A stretch of DNA of 64,000 nt from an uncultured bacterium (GTDB lineage: Bacteria; Zixibacteria; MSB-5A5; UBA10806), in the NCBI GenBank assembly GCA_965541585.1, contig CBEUCH010000006.1:128001-192000 (forward strand). The letters are read 5' to 3'. Numbering within the stretch: the first letter of the stretch is position 1; each line of letters begins with the position of its first letter. The notes under the pieces were generated by a model. The model was not told the DNA's origin and did not search any database. It saw only the letters and a program-made list of their open reading frames with translations. A program made the position numbers and the translations under genes. Of the stretch, positions 51,293 through 59,453 are shown in pieces.

Positions 51293-52102
51293 TTATTTCA
51301 GGAAAACGCTGATAACCTTATTAAACTCCTCCGGCGCCTCCAGATTTACCATATGCGCGGCGCCGCTTATTATTACGAGTTCAGAATTAGTTATATCGCG
51401 ATTAAGATAATGGGCGGCGTCCAGTAATTGTGAATCCTGTGCCCCTGCGACAATAAGTGTCGGCTGTTTTATCTCATTCAATCTGGCTCGCCAATTTTCG
51501 GTGGATGGCGTCGCCTGGCGTGCAGTCATCATGCATAGAAGGTAATCGGGGTTGTGGCGTGCGATCATCCTCTCCCATACAGGACGGCTCTCCGGGTTAC
51601 GCTTAAATATGTTATCCACCAAGGGGCCGCTTAAAAGTCCGATCTCCTCGGCCCAGGCGTTCACGCCACGCAGGCGGAGAATATTTAGCTCCTGCTGCTG
51701 AAGCTCGGTCTCTTTTTGTGCTTTCGGACGGCCTGACGAGGGCAGAATCGATGATACCATGATCAGCCTTGTTACAATATCCGGCATCTCGTAGGCGATA
51801 CGGAATGCCACCGGCCCGCTCATGGAAAATCCCAGAATTGTTACTTCGCCCGGATCGAGCGATTCTATGATGCCGATAATATCTTCGGCCATTATCGAAC
51901 CCGACCAGCTCTTTCCGCAGGAGGACTGTCCGAATCCCCTCAGATCGACAGCGATAACCTTATGAGATTTTGCTAAAACGGACTTTTGGAATTCCCACAT
52001 GGTGCTGTTAAGCGCATAGCCATGGAGAAGAACCAGTGGCGGCCCATCGCCGGTGATCTCATAATAAATGACGGCGTCTTCGGCATCGTAAAATGGCATC
52101 AC
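51293..52102 (-). CDS. Alpha/beta hydrolase
   Basis: LLHG, DLRGFGQS, GFSMSG, Asp in GAQD, His in AAH. Confidence 0.88.
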   Translation of the reverse strand: MMPFYDAEDAVIYYEITGDGPPLVLLHGYALNSTMWEFQKSVLAKSHKVIAVDLRGFGQSSCGKSWSGSIMAEDIIGIIESLDPGEVTILGFSMSGPVAFRIAYEMPDIVTRLIMVSSILPSSGRPKAQKETELQQQELNILRLRGVNAWAEEIGLLSGPLVDNIFKRNPESRPVWERMIARHNPDYLLCMMTARQATPSTENWRARLNEIKQPTLIVAGAQDSQLLDAAHYLNRDITNSELVIISGAAHMVNLEAPEEFNKVISVFLK

Positions 52103-52749
52103 GAGTCCTCGGATTCATCAGCCAGAACGGTTTTGACGGCGCTGTTAATGGTATCCCATGAGAATCCCTTGCCTCTGAGGAAACTGATCAGGCGGTTTCT
52201 GGCTTTATCGGCGGGAAGATGCTTCAATGATCTGAGTTTTTTTTTGGCCAGTTCCATCACCGCATCTTGCTCATCAAAGCCTTCAAGCTCCATTTCGATA
52301 GCGAGCTCGGCCATCTCTTTGTCGATCCCTTTCTCCCATAGTTTCTGCTTCAGATACAATCGGGATTTAACTCCGCGAGCCATCTGGGATCTGATAAACG
52401 CCGCTGCGTATCTGGAATCGTCGAAAAAGCCATAGCGCTTCAATTGGGCCATGGCATCATCTCTTATGGCAGGCGATCGCCTCTCGGCGGATAGTTTTCG
52501 CGTCAAATCCCTCTCCGATATCATGCGGCGGGATAGAATCTGCATGCCCCTGTGCTTTAACCATGCCAGGTCTGCATGCTGATTGATCCGCTGAAAACGA
52601 GCATCGGAGATGATATCTCCAACTCTCAAACTGTTTTTATGGATGGTTTCTTCGTCGATAAGAAAAGGCGGTTTGCCCTTGATCTTCAGTTCAAACCACC
52701 CTTTTTTCCTCTTGACCGGTTCTATTCCGGCGATCAGTAATTCGGCCAA
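52099..52749 (-). CDS. recX: Regulatory protein RecX
   Basis: DDSRYA, L.EKGI, FLRGKGF; directly downstream of recA. Confidence 0.88.
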   Translation of the reverse strand: MAELLIAGIEPVKRKKGWFELKIKGKPPFLIDEETIHKNSLRVGDIISDARFQRINQHADLAWLKHRGMQILSRRMISERDLTRKLSAERRSPAIRDDAMAQLKRYGFFDDSRYAAAFIRSQMARGVKSRLYLKQKLWEKGIDKEMAELAIEMELEGFDEQDAVMELAKKKLRSLKHLPADKARNRLISFLRGKGFSWDTINSAVKTVLADESEDS

Positions 52750-52768
52750 TCAGGACGCCCCCAAATAA

Positions 52769-53830
52769 TTATTTTTTCGTTTTCTCTTTTTCCGGCTTTG
52801 ATGCCGCGGGCTCCTTTTGAATAGTCGGAGGAATCATCCCCAGGCACTCACGGATCCTGGCGTATACGTCCTTTGCCAGATCCCGGTTTTCCGTAAGGTA
52901 AGCTATGGAGTTATCCCGGCCCTGGCCGAGACGTTCCTCTCCACAGGAATACCAGGTTCCGGATCTCTCGATGATACCATGCTTTGAACCGAGGTCGATG
53001 AGCTCGCCCATCCTGGAGATCCCTTTGCCATAGATGATATCGAATTCGGCATCGCGGAACGGTGGAGCCACCTTGTTTTTGACCACCCGGACCCTGGTTC
53101 TCGAACCGGTGACCTCGCCTCCGTCCTTCAGCGTGGCTATCTTGCGGATATCCAGCCGGACCGACGAATAGAATTTTAGCGCGTTGCCGCCGGGAGTCGT
53201 CTCCGGATTGCCGAACATGATCCCGATCTTCATCCTGATCTGGTTGATGAAGATAACACAGGTCTTCGATTTGGAGATGGTGCCCGTCAGCTTTCTCATG
53301 GCCTGCGACATCAAGCGGGCCTGCAGACCCATATGCGAATCCCCCATCTCGCCCTCGATCTCCGCCTTGGGAACCAGGGCAGCCACGGAGTCGATGGCGA
53401 TGAGATCGATGGCGCTGGAGCGAACCAGCGTTTCGGTAATATCGAGCGCCTGTTCGCCGGTATCGGGCTGACTGATCAGCAGGTTTTCGATATCGACACC
53501 CAGAACCCTCGCATAAGCAGGATCCATGCAATGTTCGGCGTCGATAAAGGCAGCGATACCGCCCAGCCTCTGGGCCTCGGCCAGAATATGCAGCGCCAGC
53601 GTGGTCTTCCCGGATGCCTCCGGCCCGAATATCTCCACCACCCGTCCGCGGGGTACCCCCCCGATGCCCAGTGCGACGTCGAGCCCGATGGAACCGGTCG
53701 GTATGGATGGTATCTTCAGATCGCCGGGGTCATCACCCAATCGCATAATCGAGCCCTTGCCGAACTGTCGCTCGATGGATGTCACCGCCATCTCGAGGGC
53801 TTTCTTTTTCTTCTCGTCGTTATCGCTCAT
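52769..53830 (-). CDS. recA: Recombinase A
   Basis: [40 protein letters not shown]. Confidence 0.99.
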
Positions 53831-53870
53831 TTATGCCCCTTCGTTAAAATTTTTCAAATCAACCGTCATG

Positions 53871-53899
53871 ATTATAAAATATACTGTTCAGATGTGCAA
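53871..53899 (-). promoter_or_regulatory. recA promoter with a candidate SOS box
   Basis: TTGCAC-N17-TATAAT; TGTTC-N4-GTGCA at 53885-53898 overlaps the -35. Confidence 0.65.
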
Positions 53900-53991
53900 G
53901 TGTTTTTTCGCCGTCATCATAAGATTTTTATGACACGATCTGACAGTATGATATTGTTGACTTCTCCCCTTACTCTCTAATAATAAATAAG

Positions 53992-54552
53992 TTACAGCGA
54001 TATAGCCTCGAGTTTAGTGTATTTGGGGCCGGCTGGAGAGAGGTCCGATTTGAATATGCTGACCTCATTTACGCCGAATGGCTGCGATTCATACCGGGTC
54101 TTCTCTATTTGAGCTAGAAGCTGATCGAGGCCTTTTGGGAATTTCACTCTGCCGATGGTCAAATGCGATGAAAACGGTTTGTCCCCTTTCCCGAAACCGG
54201 ACTCGATAGTCGCCTGTTCCACCTGAGCGGCCAGGCTTTTGAGCCTGTCAATGCCTGAACCGGAGCCGATCCAGATCACCCGCGGCCTTCTCAGATTCGG
54301 GAAAGCCCCCAGACCTGATAATGACAGATCGAACCCGCCGAATCCCTCGGTGTTGCCTTTTATGCTGTCGGCGAGCGACGGCACCGATTCTTCCGGGATA
54401 TCGCCCAGAAACCGTAATGTCAGGTGCAGGTTGGCCGCCTTCACCCAGCGGATATTGGCGTTGAGCTGCCGGAAGCCCGCGATCATCTTATCGATTTCCA
54501 TCTTGATCTGTTGGGGAAGATCGACCGCTATGAATGTGCGTATGTCTGCCAT
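53992..54552 (-). CDS. thpR: RNA 2',3'-cyclic phosphodiesterase (2H family)
   Basis: RTFIA, two HLT motifs, FPNLRRPRVIW. Confidence 0.93.
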   Translation of the reverse strand: MADIRTFIAVDLPQQIKMEIDKMIAGFRQLNANIRWVKAANLHLTLRFLGDIPEESVPSLADSIKGNTEGFGGFDLSLSGLGAFPNLRRPRVIWIGSGSGIDRLKSLAAQVEQATIESGFGKGDKPFSSHLTIGRVKFPKGLDQLLAQIEKTRYESQPFGVNEVSIFKSDLSPAGPKYTKLEAISL

Positions 54553-54715: not shown

Positions 54716-55267
54716 TTAGAAGGCAGTTTTTAGAACTTCCCCATTTATCAATTCAGTTAGCCTTTTGATCCGCTTATAACGCAGGACATTTCTGTTCCAA
54801 GGTCTATCATAAACTATGATCTCCATGTCGCTGGGAATTAGGTCGACGTAACCGAGATAATCTTCCACCAAACACCCTGGGGGAATATCAATATATTCTT
54901 TGCCATACTTGTTTACGAAATATAATTCATGATAATGAATTTTGTTCCGTGCAAGCCAATCTATCGTAACCTGTTTTAAATGAGGAGGTCTACTTGTTAA
55001 TACCGAAACGATATGATGGTGGTTTAGAAATTCAGTTACCCTCGAAGCGCCAATTTCTTTTTCGATATTGGTGAATAATTCATAATCGCTATATATCGAA
55101 TCCCATATTTCCCACATGTCTGATTGTGTAATTCCATATATTGTATTGAAATCGTAAACCACAAAGTCCCTGTATGTCTTCTTAATAGATAGACGTTTAT
55201 TAAAATAATCTATAAATACCTTATAGCTTTTTGACAAGCAATTATCAAGATCAATATAAATATTCAT
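54716..55267 (-). CDS. HAD-superfamily 5'(3')-nucleotidase, NT5C-like
   Basis: IYIDLDNCL (DxD), LTSRP, LVED, DRPWN; ATGA overlap at 55264-55267. Confidence 0.82.
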   Translation of the reverse strand: MNIYIDLDNCLSKSYKVFIDYFNKRLSIKKTYRDFVVYDFNTIYGITQSDMWEIWDSIYSDYELFTNIEKEIGASRVTEFLNHHHIVSVLTSRPPHLKQVTIDWLARNKIHYHELYFVNKYGKEYIDIPPGCLVEDYLGYVDLIPSDMEIIVYDRPWNRNVLRYKRIKRLTELINGEVLKTAF

Positions 55268-56091
55268 CGCGTCTCTCTCGCTATGATTTGCCCACAACCC
55301 ATTTCTTTTTGTACCCCGGCGCTTCGAAATACCTTACAGGGTACTTTTTCCATACAAAGTCGATTTTCCCATTTCTTAATATTCCGAGATACCAAAAACT
55401 CATCACTATTAGGATAAGAAAGCTTTATATAACCACATGCATTTATGATCTCTTTTCCTGTTAATAAAGCAGAAAGATCTTGGTCGCTGTCATTTAAACC
55501 ATCTATTAAACAAATATTAAAAGAAACCCGTCTAAATGGAATCTCCTCGTAGAAGATCTTGGCTACTCTTAAAAGTCTACCGTAATCACTCGGAATGCCA
55601 AGCATCTTTTCCCTTCTATCATTTACGGCGGTATGCAAGGATATCTGAAGTCTCACTTTCTCATTTCGTACAGCACTAATAACGTTGTGAATGTCTATTT
55701 TTGGAAGAATTGTAGAGATACCGATTGAGATATTGTCTAATTCAGCGAGGGAGTTAATGAGCTTAAGTGTATTGTCTATGTTGCACATTGGTTCGCCAAC
55801 ACCCATCAAATCTATCTCAATGCGGCTATCCGACCTACGGCCGCAATTTTTATCTAAGATTTCTATTTGAGCATTAATTTCATCGATAGATAAGTTACGC
55901 AGGAATCTTGTTTTGCTATTTGAGCAAAATACGCAATTAAAGGGGCATCCAATTTGTGATGAAACACAAAAGATATGCTGGTAGTCATCTCTATACGGTA
56001 GAAAGAGATAGGCACATTCTACTGTACCGTCGCCAAAATCCAAAGCGTATTTTCTATTAACGCCTAAACTAACCGTACTAACCACAATCAT
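55264..56091 (-). CDS. RlmN/Cfr-like radical SAM methyltransferase, N-terminally short
   Basis: CVSSQIGCPFNCVFC, RNLS..EI, MGVGEP, ISLH, GLNDS, GCGQI; 275 aa. Confidence 0.85.
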   Translation of the reverse strand: MIVVSTVSLGVNRKYALDFGDGTVECAYLFLPYRDDYQHIFCVSSQIGCPFNCVFCSNSKTRFLRNLSIDEINAQIEILDKNCGRRSDSRIEIDLMGVGEPMCNIDNTLKLINSLAELDNISIGISTILPKIDIHNVISAVRNEKVRLQISLHTAVNDRREKMLGIPSDYGRLLRVAKIFYEEIPFRRVSFNICLIDGLNDSDQDLSALLTGKEIINACGYIKLSYPNSDEFLVSRNIKKWENRLCMEKVPCKVFRSAGVQKEMGCGQIIARETR

Positions 56092-57215
56092 ATCTGAGCT
56101 ACGGGATAAATAAACTGTTGGTATTTTCTTAGAATATAGCGATCCGTCATGCCTGATATGAAATCAATTAATAAGACACGGTCAATGTCATTATGCATCT
56201 CTAACGATCCATTTCCTTCTTTAATATAGCGTTCAAACCCCCTTTCCTCGGCACCGGCTATTTTCCGCTGGGTATAATTTAAATAGAAATCGAATACTTT
56301 TCGTACAATACTCTTTGCCTCTTCATATCTGCTTTTAATTCGTGGATCATAGTGTATTTTCTGCTCAATTATTTTAGTCCATGTCAACGCCATCAGGGCG
56401 GCACAATGAGGTTCCATTACCAAATAGGGTTTCCCATGGTTGTCAGTAATCTGCCCGTAGTTCTCCAGGTTGTATTTGATAAATCTATTGATTATTGTTT
56501 TAAGTCGGATGTGTAATTCTGGGTCAAGGACTCCCAGAGCCTCCTTATCTAAGTCCGAAATCTTAATGTCCATATAAGACAACGTAAATTGGTTCTTATT
56601 TTTAATAGATTCCAACTCCCCTACTTTGTCTATAATATCTGACTTATCAGCGTCTTCTATATCGTGCGTAAGATATGCCATATCATCGGCGAACCTTATA
56701 ACTTGACCTTCTAATGTAAGCGGTAGGTTTTTGGAAAAATCGGAATAATCAAGACGGTGTTTTCGTATACCATCAAGCGTTTCGGGCAGAAAGGATCTTC
56801 CGTATTTTGATCTAATTCCCGTAGCTATCTTATAACTATTTTCCGGGTGACTCCATTCTTTCAATGAAATGCCATGCTCCTTGACGATACTATCAAGGGC
56901 TTCCTCACCTGCATGTCCAAAGGGCGCGTGACCTATGTCGTGGCCTAGCGCCATTGCCTCAGTCAAATCAACATTCAGTTCAAGGACCCTCGCAATATTC
57001 TTAGCAATTCTCACGACCTCGAAAGTATGGGCTAAACGTGTTCGGACATGGTCATCTTGCGGTGTGGTGAAGATCTGTGATTTGTGAGCGAGTCTTCTGA
57101 AAGCATTTGAATAGATTATTGCATCACCTTCCCTCACATATATGGATCTAACGTTATCAGCTTCGTAAAGCTCATCCCCTGTATTCGACCTGAATTCTGC
57201 GAGGTTCTTCAGCAT
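56088..57215 (-). CDS. dGTP triphosphohydrolase-like HD protein
   Basis: AFRRLAHKSQIF, RTRLAHTFEV, GHDIGHAPFGHAGE, TLEGQ, ADDMAY..HDIED, DFISGMTDRY; ATG 57215 with GGAGG SD. Confidence 0.9.
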   Translation of the reverse strand: MLKNLAEFRSNTGDELYEADNVRSIYVREGDAIIYSNAFRRLAHKSQIFTTPQDDHVRTRLAHTFEVVRIAKNIARVLELNVDLTEAMALGHDIGHAPFGHAGEEALDSIVKEHGISLKEWSHPENSYKIATGIRSKYGRSFLPETLDGIRKHRLDYSDFSKNLPLTLEGQVIRFADDMAYLTHDIEDADKSDIIDKVGELESIKNKNQFTLSYMDIKISDLDKEALGVLDPELHIRLKTIINRFIKYNLENYGQITDNHGKPYLVMEPHCAALMALTWTKIIEQKIHYDPRIKSRYEEAKSIVRKVFDFYLNYTQRKIAGAEERGFERYIKEGNGSLEMHNDIDRVLLIDFISGMTDRYILRKYQQFIYPVAQI

Positions 57216-57293
57216 ACAATCCTCCACCAGGCGTAAATAAGGAAATCTAAAGCCCGGGCATTTCGCAGGAATTACGATTGGTTCTTCCTTTAC

Positions 57294-57322
57294 AATATAA
57301 AGAGCTATCTCTGCTTTTTCAA
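57294..57322 (-). promoter_or_regulatory. Sigma70-type promoter of the HD/radical-SAM/HAD operon
   Basis: TTGAAA-N17-TATATT. Confidence 0.55.
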
Positions 57323-57495: not shown

Positions 57496-58254
57496 TCAGA
57501 AATCAATGTCTGTAAAAGCAGTGTTATGTGTGAAGCTGACATCCAGGCCTTCCGCCATGCCGGTAGCCATCACCCGCCAGGCATGATCGATCGGCGGCGC
57601 GTCGTACCTCCCGTTACCGTTGAGATCGGCGTAGAAATCGATCTGATATTGAGCGCCGCTCTGGATGATATCCCTGATCTCGATATCGAAATCGTGGTTG
57701 GGGATGGTATCGAGGCGATACTGCCCCACGGTCCTTCCCGATTCGGTGTGGATAACCTTCATCTCGAAAAGCTGCCCCAAATGGGGATTAAACCCGAATA
57801 GATCCAGGCGGAATTCAGAACCAAGATCGGAGTACGAAGGTTCATCGATATCCGTGAAATCTGTATTATGCGAGAACGTTACCTCGACTTCGCCGGTCGC
57901 AGGAAGGTCTAATCTCCAGGCGTGGTCTTCCGGCGGAGGATCGTAGGAATCAGTCATGTTGAGGTCCGCGAAGAAATCAAGCCTGTGGGGCCCCTCGGGC
58001 ACCGATGATTTCATGACCATATCGATCTCTGCCGATGGAAGAGGATCGAGAATAACTTGAGCCTGCAGTTGGTTTCCGCTGGAAACTACTCTAAGTTCCA
58101 CCAACTGGCCCACATGCGGAGACATATCCTGTAGATGCAGGGTCATGTCCCGGTTATCAGACGAAGGGGGTGGGGGCTGGGTCGTATTATTATCGTCACA
58201 GGCAACGATTACGAGCAATAAAGACATTGAAAGACCAAACATCACGTTTTTCAT
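57496..58254 (-). CDS. Lipoprotein with a tandem duplicated domain
   Basis: Lipobox IVAC; two repeats of PHxGQL...DF(F/Y)ADLN...YDxPPxDHAWR...FxHNTxFTDI. Confidence 0.8.
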   Translation of the reverse strand: MKNVMFGLSMSLLLVIVACDDNNTTQPPPPSSDNRDMTLHLQDMSPHVGQLVELRVVSSGNQLQAQVILDPLPSAEIDMVMKSSVPEGPHRLDFFADLNMTDSYDPPPEDHAWRLDLPATGEVEVTFSHNTDFTDIDEPSYSDLGSEFRLDLFGFNPHLGQLFEMKVIHTESGRTVGQYRLDTIPNHDFDIEIRDIIQSGAQYQIDFYADLNGNGRYDAPPIDHAWRVMATGMAEGLDVSFTHNTAFTDIDF

Positions 58255-58433
58255 AAAACCTCTCTTGTTACAGTAAGCAAATCCTTCGTTTTCCACTTTT
58301 TTACAGCAGTAAAAGCCTGCCGGTTTCCCTAATCGAGAGTGATAACCATTTTCAATATATGAAAGTTCCCGGCCCGGTAAACGAAAAGGTTGATTCTCAA
58401 TATGAGATGCCGTCCGAAATTTCGTTTAGCGAC

Positions 58434-59453
58434 TTATTTTAAATCAGTATCAGTATCGCGGAAGACGTTGCTTACGCGTAAAAGGCTGTCAAGATAACCG
58501 GCGTTCTCCGAAACATGCCGCAGCTTGTCTTCGCCATACCCCCGTTCGACCGCGGCCGCCGCCACGCGTCCCTGATTATTGTAGAGGACATCGGGTATAT
58601 AGTTCGATAAAGAATCATCGTACGCCTCTAAAGGCGATATGATTTCCCAACCCTTCTTCCGCAGAAAATTAACCAGATCATCGATGTACAAAGCGGCCAG
58701 GTCATTTTCGTGCAGTAATAAAACATGATTCGGCGAATAGCCGAGCGCGTCACGGGCCATTTTATCGTAGAATTGGATAGCGCCCCATAACATATCGACA
58801 TAGATTTTCCCGAGAGCCACGGTATCGATCTCCATACCGTTCTCGGCCGCGTCCCGGCATTTCCGGTCGATGTACCAGTCCCAGGTGTCTATAGTAACGT
58901 AGCCATTGCGATATCCGAGCGAATCCAGAGCTTGACGTATACTGTCTCTCACCGGTACCGTCCTGCCCTCGTCAAGCATAGGATAACGGAACAGTGGCAC
59001 AAATGTCGAGAATTGCCGCAGGCTGTCATCGGCACCGCGAATATCCGAAATATACGATACACATCCTGAATCATCGGGTCGACGATGAGAATGACTGTGG
59101 TTGCCCAGAAGATGGCCGGCTTTTGCGTATCGCTCAAGACGATTATGGCCATCATTGTAGGGAAGATTTTCCGTAATACAATAAAAAATCACCGACGGTA
59201 CAGCAACATCATTTAGTTGTCTGATAAATCTATCAGTCCGCTTCGCCCCACCGAAAAAAGCGCCCTTGCCGCTGGGAGCGTCATCGAAGCTCAAACAAAG
59301 GCGGCCGATCGGAGGTTCTTCAGTAGAGCCTTTTCCGGGCTTTTTATCTTCTCCCAGGGCTGACTGAAATTCTCCCGCCGGGGAGGCAATTATTACCATT
59401 AAGCAAAACAGGATCAAACACATGTTTAGTCCCGTCAGTCTGGTATGTGTCAT
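58434..59453 (-). CDS. Secreted polysaccharide deacetylase (CE4)
   Basis: LSFDDAP, GNHSHSH, FRYP, LLLHEN. Confidence 0.88.
   Translation of the reverse strand: MTHTRLTGLNMCLILFCLMVIIASPAGEFQSALGEDKKPGKGSTEEPPIGRLCLSFDDAPSGKGAFFGGAKRTDRFIRQLNDVAVPSVIFYCITENLPYNDGHNRLERYAKAGHLLGNHSHSHRRPDDSGCVSYISDIRGADDSLRQFSTFVPLFRYPMLDEGRTVPVRDSIRQALDSLGYRNGYVTIDTWDWYIDRKCRDAAENGMEIDTVALGKIYVDMLWGAIQFYDKMARDALGYSPNHVLLLHENDLAALYIDDLVNFLRKKGWEIISPLEAYDDSLSNYIPDVLYNNQGRVAAAAVERGYGEDKLRHVSENAGYLDSLLRVSNVFRDTDTDLK

What the first reader, a model, noticed from the sequence alone, without database searches (positions are those of the whole stretch)
54716..57322. AT-rich three-gene nucleotide-modifying cassette: dGTPase-like HD + RlmN/Cfr-like radical SAM + NT5C HAD nucleotidase
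Seen: three genes joined by two ATGA overlaps (56088-91, 55264-67) behind one promoter. They are far more AT-rich than the flanks (hand count 19/60 G+C at 55141-55200 versus 41/60 in recA at 53341-53400) and sit upstream of thpR-recA. Established: some dGTPases defend against phage by depleting dGTP; radical SAM viperins make antiviral nucleotides; RlmN and Cfr methylate adenine C2 and C8; NT5C enzymes dephosphorylate nucleotides. Inference: a horizontally acquired pathway that makes, removes or detoxifies a C-methylated purine nucleotide. Anti-phage defence is the most plausible role; nucleoside-metabolite synthesis (for example 2-methyladenine) is an alternative. I know of no described system with this trio.
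Basis: partly seen in the sequence, partly recalled or inferred. Interest (0 to 1): 0.88.

Follow-up and report, generated by a model that had tools for sequence, protein, structure and literature searches.

The report
Mini-RlmN methylase paired with dGTPase
This inserted three-gene unit pairs a cut-down relative of the RNA methylase RlmN, stripped of its RNA-gripping parts, with a dedicated dGTPase-like enzyme and a nucleotidase, which points to an undescribed pathway that methylates and then breaks down a free purine nucleotide, possibly against phages (untested).

Summary
The cassette is real: three intact, translationally coupled genes at 38% G+C in a 49% genome, inserted at a variable site before thpR-recA. 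The genome has its own full-length rlmN and dgt. The radical SAM protein keeps all RlmN/Cfr catalytic residues but lacks the N-terminal domain and has swapped R206, E278, N307 and R344 (E. coli numbering), so it is neither RlmN nor Cfr. The exact trio was found only here. The HD + mini-RlmN pair is conserved: adjacent in 9 of 61 related metagenome loci and in another genome of the phylum, fused in one 759-aa protein, absent from 80 control rlmN loci. All 11 linked HDs tested form one clade. The third slot varies among nucleotide hydrolases (NT5C, YfbR, an NDT-fold protein). A sister subclade carries a membrane GAF-like protein instead. Best reading: the enzyme C-methylates a free purine nucleotide that the hydrolases then process, most likely in phage defence. 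Against this, no canonical defence system lay in the flanks scanned, the closest relative with context lacks a coupled HD, and nothing is shown biochemically.

The parts
57294..57322 (-). sigma-70-like promoter candidate (TTGAAA-17-TATATT), unproven
   Evidence: 10 of 12 matches, but 9 sites found against 10.5 expected by chance
57221..57225 (-). ribosome-binding site GGAGG, 5 nt before the ATG at 57215
   Evidence: read from the sequence
56088..57215 (-). dGTPase-like HD triphosphohydrolase (P0001, 375 aa) of a clade linked to the mini-RlmN; catalytic set intact (Q47, R60, H63, H92-D93, H101, E104, D177, D178, Y181)
   Evidence: residue roles by CloA numbering in passages of 10.1101/2025.07.09.663793
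55264..56091 (-). mini-RlmN radical SAM C-methyl synthase (P0002, 275 aa): C42, C49/C53/C56, M96-G-V-G-E100-P, S126, S151, N228, C266 kept; RlmN N-terminal domain absent; R206, E278, N307, R344 positions replaced
   Evidence: AlphaFold model pLDDT 89.6, best folds RlmN TM 0.77-0.82
54716..55267 (-). NT5C-family HAD nucleotidase (P0003, 183 aa): D6-x-D8, T91-S92, K120/K123, E135-D136
   Evidence: (PF06941 29.0 bits, cut-off 24.8); motif roles recalled
52099..54552 (-). flank, not part of the cassette: conserved thpR-recA-recX block; the site upstream of it varies between relatives

Best explanation
A make-and-clear nucleotide module used in phage defence. The mini-RlmN uses RlmN/Cfr chemistry (SAM methylates C266, the 5'-deoxyadenosyl radical activates that methyl, C42 releases the adduct) to put a methyl group on C2 or C8 of a free purine nucleotide, most likely an adenine (deoxy)nucleotide, not on rRNA or tRNA. 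The methylated nucleotide is the active agent: it poisons or starves phage DNA synthesis, and in the sister subclade it is read by a membrane GAF-like protein. The HD enzyme strips the triphosphate and NT5C the monophosphate, which makes the drain one-way and keeps the uninfected cell clean. Shown here: gene anatomy, intact catalytic residues, loss of RNA-contact features, conserved linkage, co-clustering of the HDs. Inferred: substrate, methylated position, trigger, defence role.
For: Catalytic residues kept while N-domain and RNA contacts are lost: in 25 HD- or TM-GAF-linked proteins N307 is K in 100%, R344 is F in 100%, E278 is N in 88%, against N, R, E in 100, 100, 96% of 81 long forms; core net charge -0.5 against +6.1. 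RlmN needs extended RNA contacts (R206 binds G29; a 17-mer stem-loop is not a substrate; passages of PMC5130265). HD directly upstream in 9 of 61 distinct loci, 9 of 14 within the non-TM part of the clade with at least 600 bp upstream, 0 of 80 control rlmN loci; also in G070 and fused in P0026. The 11 linked HDs tested form one clade apart from 18 other Dgt-like proteins (100/99; mixture model 100/97); 10 of the 11 have lost the base-contacting Tyr. Other neighbours act on free nucleotides: YfbR (L233), DUF7768 with an NDT/DNPH1-like fold in 5 loci (Z 13.1 to 1T1J, 9-11 to deoxyribosyltransferases), NUDIX + thymidylate kinase (L241, L272), a HAD (L224), dCTP-deaminase-like genes (L231, L260). 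TM-GAF-like gene in 14 of 16 loci of a sister subclade. Patchy and rare: 2 of 285 and 0 of 401 genomes. L260 joins the enzyme to CapP/Macro, Schlafen and DCD-TM genes.
Against: No canonical defence system among 115 flank and partner proteins; most hits were generic ATPases, with PDC-S07 twice in L196 and CapP/DarG/PDC-S50 hits in L260; most copies sit alone between housekeeping genes. L233, the closest relative with context, shows no HD in its 354 bp upstream. P0001 itself keeps the canonical Tyr and Asp and sits on a long branch (1.65-1.85), so it may be an ordinary dGTP hydrolase. It scores 148.5 against a cut-off of 400 for the anti-phage dGTPase model. Phage mini-RlmNs lie among tRNA genes in some genomes, which fits an RNA target. 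The GAF call is under the Atlas bar (TM 0.41-0.50). Radical SAM enzymes are oxygen-sensitive, and no trigger is evident (own knowledge). The scan pattern catches only about a third of short forms (20-25 of 66).
Confidence: 0.36

Rival explanations
1. Metabolic or natural-product role without defence: the module makes a methylated purine nucleoside or base (for example 2-methyladenine, a known cobamide lower base, or a nucleoside antimetabolite), with HD, NT5C and the NDT-fold protein releasing it.
For: All hydrolase partners converge on nucleoside or free base. No defence-island context. Some more distant mini-RlmNs sit in biosynthetic-looking clusters (L229, L270, L238) and P0149 is fused to a class I methyltransferase.
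Against: No cobamide, export or tailoring genes beside the HD-linked loci in the 139 operon and 85 flank proteins scanned. A non-enzymatic TM-GAF-like partner in 14 of 16 sister loci is hard to fit. Very patchy distribution and rapid divergence.
Confidence: 0.22
2. The mini-RlmN still modifies a nucleic acid (a tRNA anticodon loop, a short RNA or single-stranded DNA), and HD and NT5C salvage or sanitise the methylated nucleotides released by turnover.
For: Fold closest to RlmN and Cfr. R114 and R141 positions are kept. Phage relatives lie among tRNA genes. Loss of the N-domain has not been shown here to abolish RNA binding.
Against: Loss of R206, R344, N307, E278 and of positive charge; RlmN ignores a 17-mer stem-loop (PMC5130265 passages); housekeeping rlmN loci need no such hydrolases (0 of 80); kinases and an N-glycosidase fold as partners fit free nucleotides better.
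Confidence: 0.2
3. Clover-like wiring: P0001 is a canonical dGTPase effector that depletes dGTP; the methylated nucleotide is only its allosteric activator or inhibitor, and NT5C clears that signal.
For: P0001 keeps every CloA catalytic position including Y181 and D178; PADLOC dGTPase 189 bits. One enzyme clade with swappable effectors (HD or TM-GAF-like) is the pattern of signalling systems; Clover is the precedent (abstract and passages).
Against: 10 of 11 linked HDs have a remodelled base pocket, and two (L218, L239) lost a further conserved His, which suggests a changed substrate. Allosteric sites were not tested.
Confidence: 0.17
4. Chance assembly or a decaying insert without a joint function.
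For: The exact trio was seen once; the site upstream of thpR collects unrelated genes in relatives.
Against: Intact frames, two ATGA overlaps, uniform low G+C, conserved HD linkage, one HD clade, a fusion protein, and a Bathyarchaeota record with 54% and 58% identical radical SAM and NT5C under consecutive accessions.
Confidence: 0.05

Closest known systems
RlmN (23S rRNA A2503 / tRNA A37 C2 methyl synthase; TIGR00048; PDB 3RFA, 5HR6/7, 6FZ6)
   Same: Fold (TM 0.77-0.82), CxxxCxxC, both catalytic cysteines, MGxGEP, S211, S233, N312.
   Different: No N-terminal domain; R206, E278, N307, R344 replaced; 114.9 bits against cut-off 290; accessory copy beside a separate full rlmN; nucleotide hydrolases as partners.
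Cfr (23S rRNA A2503 C8 methyl synthase; NF000424; PDB 9P0P)
   Same: Same two-cysteine chemistry, mobile accessory gene.
   Different: 74.1 bits against cut-off 530; no N-domain; Cfr(C) keeps R206 and R344; no resistance context.
Clover (CloA dGTPase + CloB nucleotidyltransferase; bioRxiv 10.1101/2025.07.09.663793, abstract and passages seen)
   Same: An HD dNTPase coupled to a partner enzyme that could make a nucleotide ligand; same catalytic positions in the HD.
   Different: Partner is a radical SAM methyl synthase, not a Pol-beta NTase; P0001 is 375 aa with only N-terminal sequence matches to the 471-473 aa 9P8S-V chains; 'radical' and 'methyltransferase' occur 0 times in that text.
Stand-alone anti-phage dGTPase (NF041026, PADLOC PDLC02374; Shewanella enzyme, PDB 9P8W)
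   Same: HD triphosphohydrolase core; PADLOC hit 189 bits.
   Different: Below the NCBIfam cut-off (148.5 of 400); own clade; always coupled to the mini-RlmN in the loci seen.
Prokaryotic viperins and Kongming (nucleotide-modifying defence; viperin recalled, Kongming from the search listing of PMC13454610)
   Same: An enzyme alters a free nucleotide to give a poison (ddhNTP) or a signal (dITP); viperin is a radical SAM enzyme often found with kinases (recalled).
   Different: Viperin ranks far below RlmN in the fold search (TM 0.51-0.58); no deaminase, HAM1 or SIR2 gene in the cassette; predicted chemistry is C-methylation.

Membership tests
RlmN | CxxxCxxC cluster motif, methyl-carrier Cys355 and resolving Cys118 | tested here: met
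   C49/C53/C56, C266, C42 align with E. coli RlmN
RlmN | SAM-site residues M176-G-x-G-E180-P, S211, S233, N312 | tested here: met
   M96-P101, S126, S151, N228; roles recalled
RlmN | N-terminal helical domain (PF21016) | tested here: not met
   No hit; about 80 residues missing against E. coli RlmN; upstream DNA is the HD gene
RlmN | RNA-contact residues R206 (binds tRNA G29, PMC5130265) and R344/N307/E278 (role recalled) | tested here: not met
   R206 loop shortened, F255, K223, N192
RlmN | TIGR00048 score above cut-off; single vertical copy | tested here: not met
   114.9 of 290; separate 342-aa rlmN in the genome
RlmN | m2A formation on 23S rRNA or tRNA | not testable with these tools
   needs an assay
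Cfr | NF000424 / TIGR04432 score and N-terminal domain | tested here: not met
   74.1 of 530 and 68.6 of 550
dGTP triphosphohydrolase subfamily (TIGR01353) | Model score and HD + HE catalytic set | tested here: met
   166.4 against 152.35; H63, H92, D93, H101, E104, D177
Anti-phage dGTPase (NF041026) | Score above curated cut-off | tested here: not met
   148.5 of 400
Anti-phage dGTPase (NF041026) | dGTP depletion and phage restriction | not testable with these tools
   needs an assay
Clover | Adjacent CloB Pol-beta nucleotidyltransferase | tested here: not met
   Neighbours are radical SAM and NT5C
NT5C 5'(3')-nucleotidase | PF06941 above cut-off and HAD motifs I-IV | tested here: met
   29.0 against 24.8; D6-x-D8, T91, K120/K123, E135-D136; no solved relative by sequence
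Viperin | Viperin-type fold and family assignment | tested here: not met
   RlmN/Cfr take ranks 1-11; viperins rank 24 and lower; NCBIfam best hits are RlmN/Cfr
Defence-island system (general) | Known defence systems enriched in the flanks | tested here: inconclusive
   None canonical among 115 proteins from flanks of at most 6 kb and partner genes, many contigs short; one defence-like operon, L260

The most novel reading that the evidence does not exclude
Mini-RlmN enzymes are a family of immune nucleotide synthases: RlmN/Cfr chemistry moved from RNA to a free purine nucleotide to give a C-methylated (d)ATP-type signal or poison, wired to swappable outputs (a dedicated dNTPase clade, a membrane GAF-like effector, Schlafen/DCD-TM proteins) and clearing enzymes (NT5C, YfbR, NDT fold), with phage-borne copies as a counter-move.
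Probability: 0.3. Interest if true: 0.92.

Novelty: new variant of a known kind. Interest (0 to 1): 0.72.

Why it matters
RlmN/Cfr-type enzymes are known to me only as RNA methylases. An intact version acting on a free nucleotide would be new enzymology for C-methylating purines. If the role is defence, it adds a new chemical class to nucleotide-based immunity beside ddhNTPs, dITP and p3diT, and gives a testable function for the many unexplained mini-RlmN genes of large phages. The cassette is 2.5 kb with clear catalytic residues, so the test is direct.

Tried and rejected
Search for longer fusions found 1 protein, an ordinary RlmN, and missed the known fusion P0026, so it is weak. No HD or NT5C beside any of 62 viral loci; second pattern 0 hits in viral contigs; NT5C alignment 0 relatives in viral contigs; none of 25 viral Dgt-like loci had a mini-RlmN. 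Plasmids: the 40 and 25 rows listed were housekeeping RlmN, Cfr or Dgt. No flanking repeats that look like attachment sites; no terminator after NT5C; no match to four recalled LexA-box patterns. Sequencing runs: no RNA holder listed; the one DNA run did not cover the cassette. Complex prediction of HD with radical SAM gave no result. Gene order on the Bathyarchaeota contig could not be read. The first local HD profile held a wrongly translated third row; its hits were confirmed by Pfam and it still found housekeeping-type Dgt at 54-128 bits. Two unrelated radical SAM proteins of L063 entered the tree by mistake, and MSMGEP-type phage proteins (L069-L073) were left out of it. Paper searches that found no description of the module: (listings only). 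Nicastro et al. 2023, cited in the Clover preprint for dNTPase operons, is not held and may mention such loci; subscription papers and bioRxiv supplements were not seen.

Full report
Observation. The three genes are real and intact on the minus strand: HD 57215-56088, radical SAM 56091-55264, NT5C 55267-54716, joined by two ATGA overlaps. G+C is 0.383 against 0.489 for the genome, as low as 0.44% of 6,867 windows, with third-codon G+C of 0.34-0.40 against 0.60-0.71 in three neighbours. The promoter candidate at 57322-57294 is not above chance (9 sites found, 10.5 expected).

It is an insertion, not the housekeeping set. The genome encodes a separate 342-aa rlmN and a 383-aa dgt. thpR-recA-recX is conserved in the family, but what lies upstream changes; dinB abuts thpR in G011 and G005, and the same-genus G001 has 673 unrelated bases there. 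None of 36 loci from 24 relatives hit any of the three proteins (24 of these loci have only 1.5 kb flanks). A short-form pattern matched 2 of 285 genomes of the phylum and 0 of 401 sampled from another.

The radical SAM protein is a mini-RlmN. Its model (pLDDT 89.6) matches RlmN and Cfr first. It keeps E105, C118, C125/129/132, M176-P181, S211, S233, N312 and C355 (E. coli numbering) but lacks the N-terminal domain. In 25 HD- or TM-GAF-linked members N307 is always K, R344 always F and E278 mostly N, while 81 long forms keep N, R and E; R206 is lost and core net charge falls from +6.1 to -0.5. R206 binds tRNA G29 and a 17-mer stem-loop is not an RlmN substrate (PMC5130265, passages); the roles of the other residues are recalled. 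Scores are far below the RlmN and Cfr cut-offs. Of 163 rows in the first tree, 65 were short forms, so the family is broad; close relatives are few (54% Bathyarchaeota, 39% P0018).

Linkage. A metagenome scan gave 83 loci. I dropped 11 frameshifted long forms; the other 72 collapse to 61 at 85% identity. A dGTPase-like HD lies directly upstream in 9 of 61 (9 of 44 with at least 600 bp upstream; 9 of 14 in the non-TM part of P0002's clade), against 0 of 80 control rlmN loci. G070 has the same pair and P0026 fuses both domains, 32% and 31% identical to P0002 and P0001. All HD-linked and TM-GAF-linked rows fall with P0002 in one 68-row group (SH-aLRT 96, quick tree). The 11 linked HDs tested form one clade apart from 18 other Dgt-like proteins, including the host's (100/99; 100/97 with the mixture model); P0001 is a long branch and the outgroup is small. 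P0001 keeps every CloA catalytic position, whereas the other 10 lost the Tyr that contacts the base in CloA.

The third slot is exchangeable. P0002's next relative (L233) has a YfbR 5'-deoxynucleotidase downstream and no HD in 354 bp upstream. DUF7768 occurs in 5 loci and folds like nucleoside deoxyribosyltransferases and DNPH1. L224 reads HAD, HD, radical SAM, DUF7768 (the HAD is 435 bp away and may be unrelated). More distant members lie beside NUDIX + thymidylate kinase, nucleotidyltransferases, dCTP-deaminase-like or adenylosuccinate-synthetase-like genes. A sister subclade has a membrane protein with a GAF-like domain in 14 of 16 loci (GAF is a lead under the Atlas bar). Mini-RlmNs are also common in large phages, in separate clades, without HD or NT5C.

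Mechanism. Shown: intact chemistry, lost RNA-docking features, conserved coupling to enzymes of free-nucleotide turnover. Inferred: the enzyme methylates C2 or C8 of a free purine nucleotide, and HD and NT5C remove the tri- and monophosphate. I put a defence role first (0.36 for make-and-clear, 0.17 for Clover-like allosteric control) because of rarity, insertion, fast divergence, swappable partners and one defence-like operon (L260). The evidence against is real: no canonical defence system among 115 flank and partner proteins, most copies alone among housekeeping genes, and P0001 below the anti-phage dGTPase cut-off. A metabolic role (0.22) and a nucleic-acid target (0.20) remain open.

Comparison and novelty. 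It works like Clover, viperin or Kongming in outline but fails membership of each, and of RlmN and Cfr. Six paper searches (listings) found no such module. I read passages of PMC5130265, of the Clover preprint (with abstract) and of the review PMC13434031 ('radical' and 'methyl' 0 times). Nicastro et al. 2023 was not available and might list such loci. Earlier notes of this scan describe mini-RlmN genes elsewhere but not the dGTPase link; they are leads only. Verdict: a real, apparently undescribed mini-RlmN + dNTPase module, of which this trio is one variant; function untested. Interest 0.72.

Noticed in passing
L003:1760-5052 (G000:C6:61759-65051, outside the window): Second low-G+C island in the same genome: ThsB-like TIR, an HD protein with a weak dGTPase hit and a nucleotidyltransferase-like protein hitting PADLOC PDC-M70A; Clover-like in layout.
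   Followed up: partly
L196:6591-7616, L257:4749-5732 and 12 more loci: Unnamed membrane protein (glycine-rich hydrophobic N-terminus, GAF-like C-terminus) coupled behind a mini-RlmN subclade; no Pfam or PADLOC family; candidate sensor or effector.
   Followed up: partly
L260:4377-11352: Operon of M78 peptidase-Macro, kinase plus adenylosuccinate-synthetase-like (two frames), DUF7002, dCTP-deaminase-like with a hydrophobic tail, mini-RlmN and Schlafen; DUF7002 also precedes the enzyme in L220.
   Followed up: partly
L072:3189-6882 (Vibrio phage 496E54-1); L071 and L073: Phage mini-RlmN directly after a nicotinate phosphoribosyltransferase and near a PRPP synthetase; in two other phages it lies among tRNA genes.
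   Followed up: no
L365:7178-10107 and L206:3667-6654: A mini-RlmN subclade converges tail to tail on an AAA ATPase gene (706 aa in L206; 384 + 360 aa in G289).
   Followed up: no
P0149 (481 aa): Mini-RlmN fused to a class I SAM methyltransferase.
   Followed up: no
L241, L272; L217, L247: Mini-RlmN followed by NUDIX and thymidylate kinase, or by a nucleotidyltransferase-like gene, in one related subclade.
   Followed up: no
window 57496-59453: A lipoprotein with two similar halves and no Pfam hit, and a polysaccharide deacetylase, share the variable site between dinB and thpR; both have host-like G+C.
   Followed up: partly
L195, L202, L203, L209, L213, L222, L242, L243, L248, L250, L266: Eleven gut-assembly rlmN genes broken by frameshifts at varying places, probably assembly errors.
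   Followed up: no
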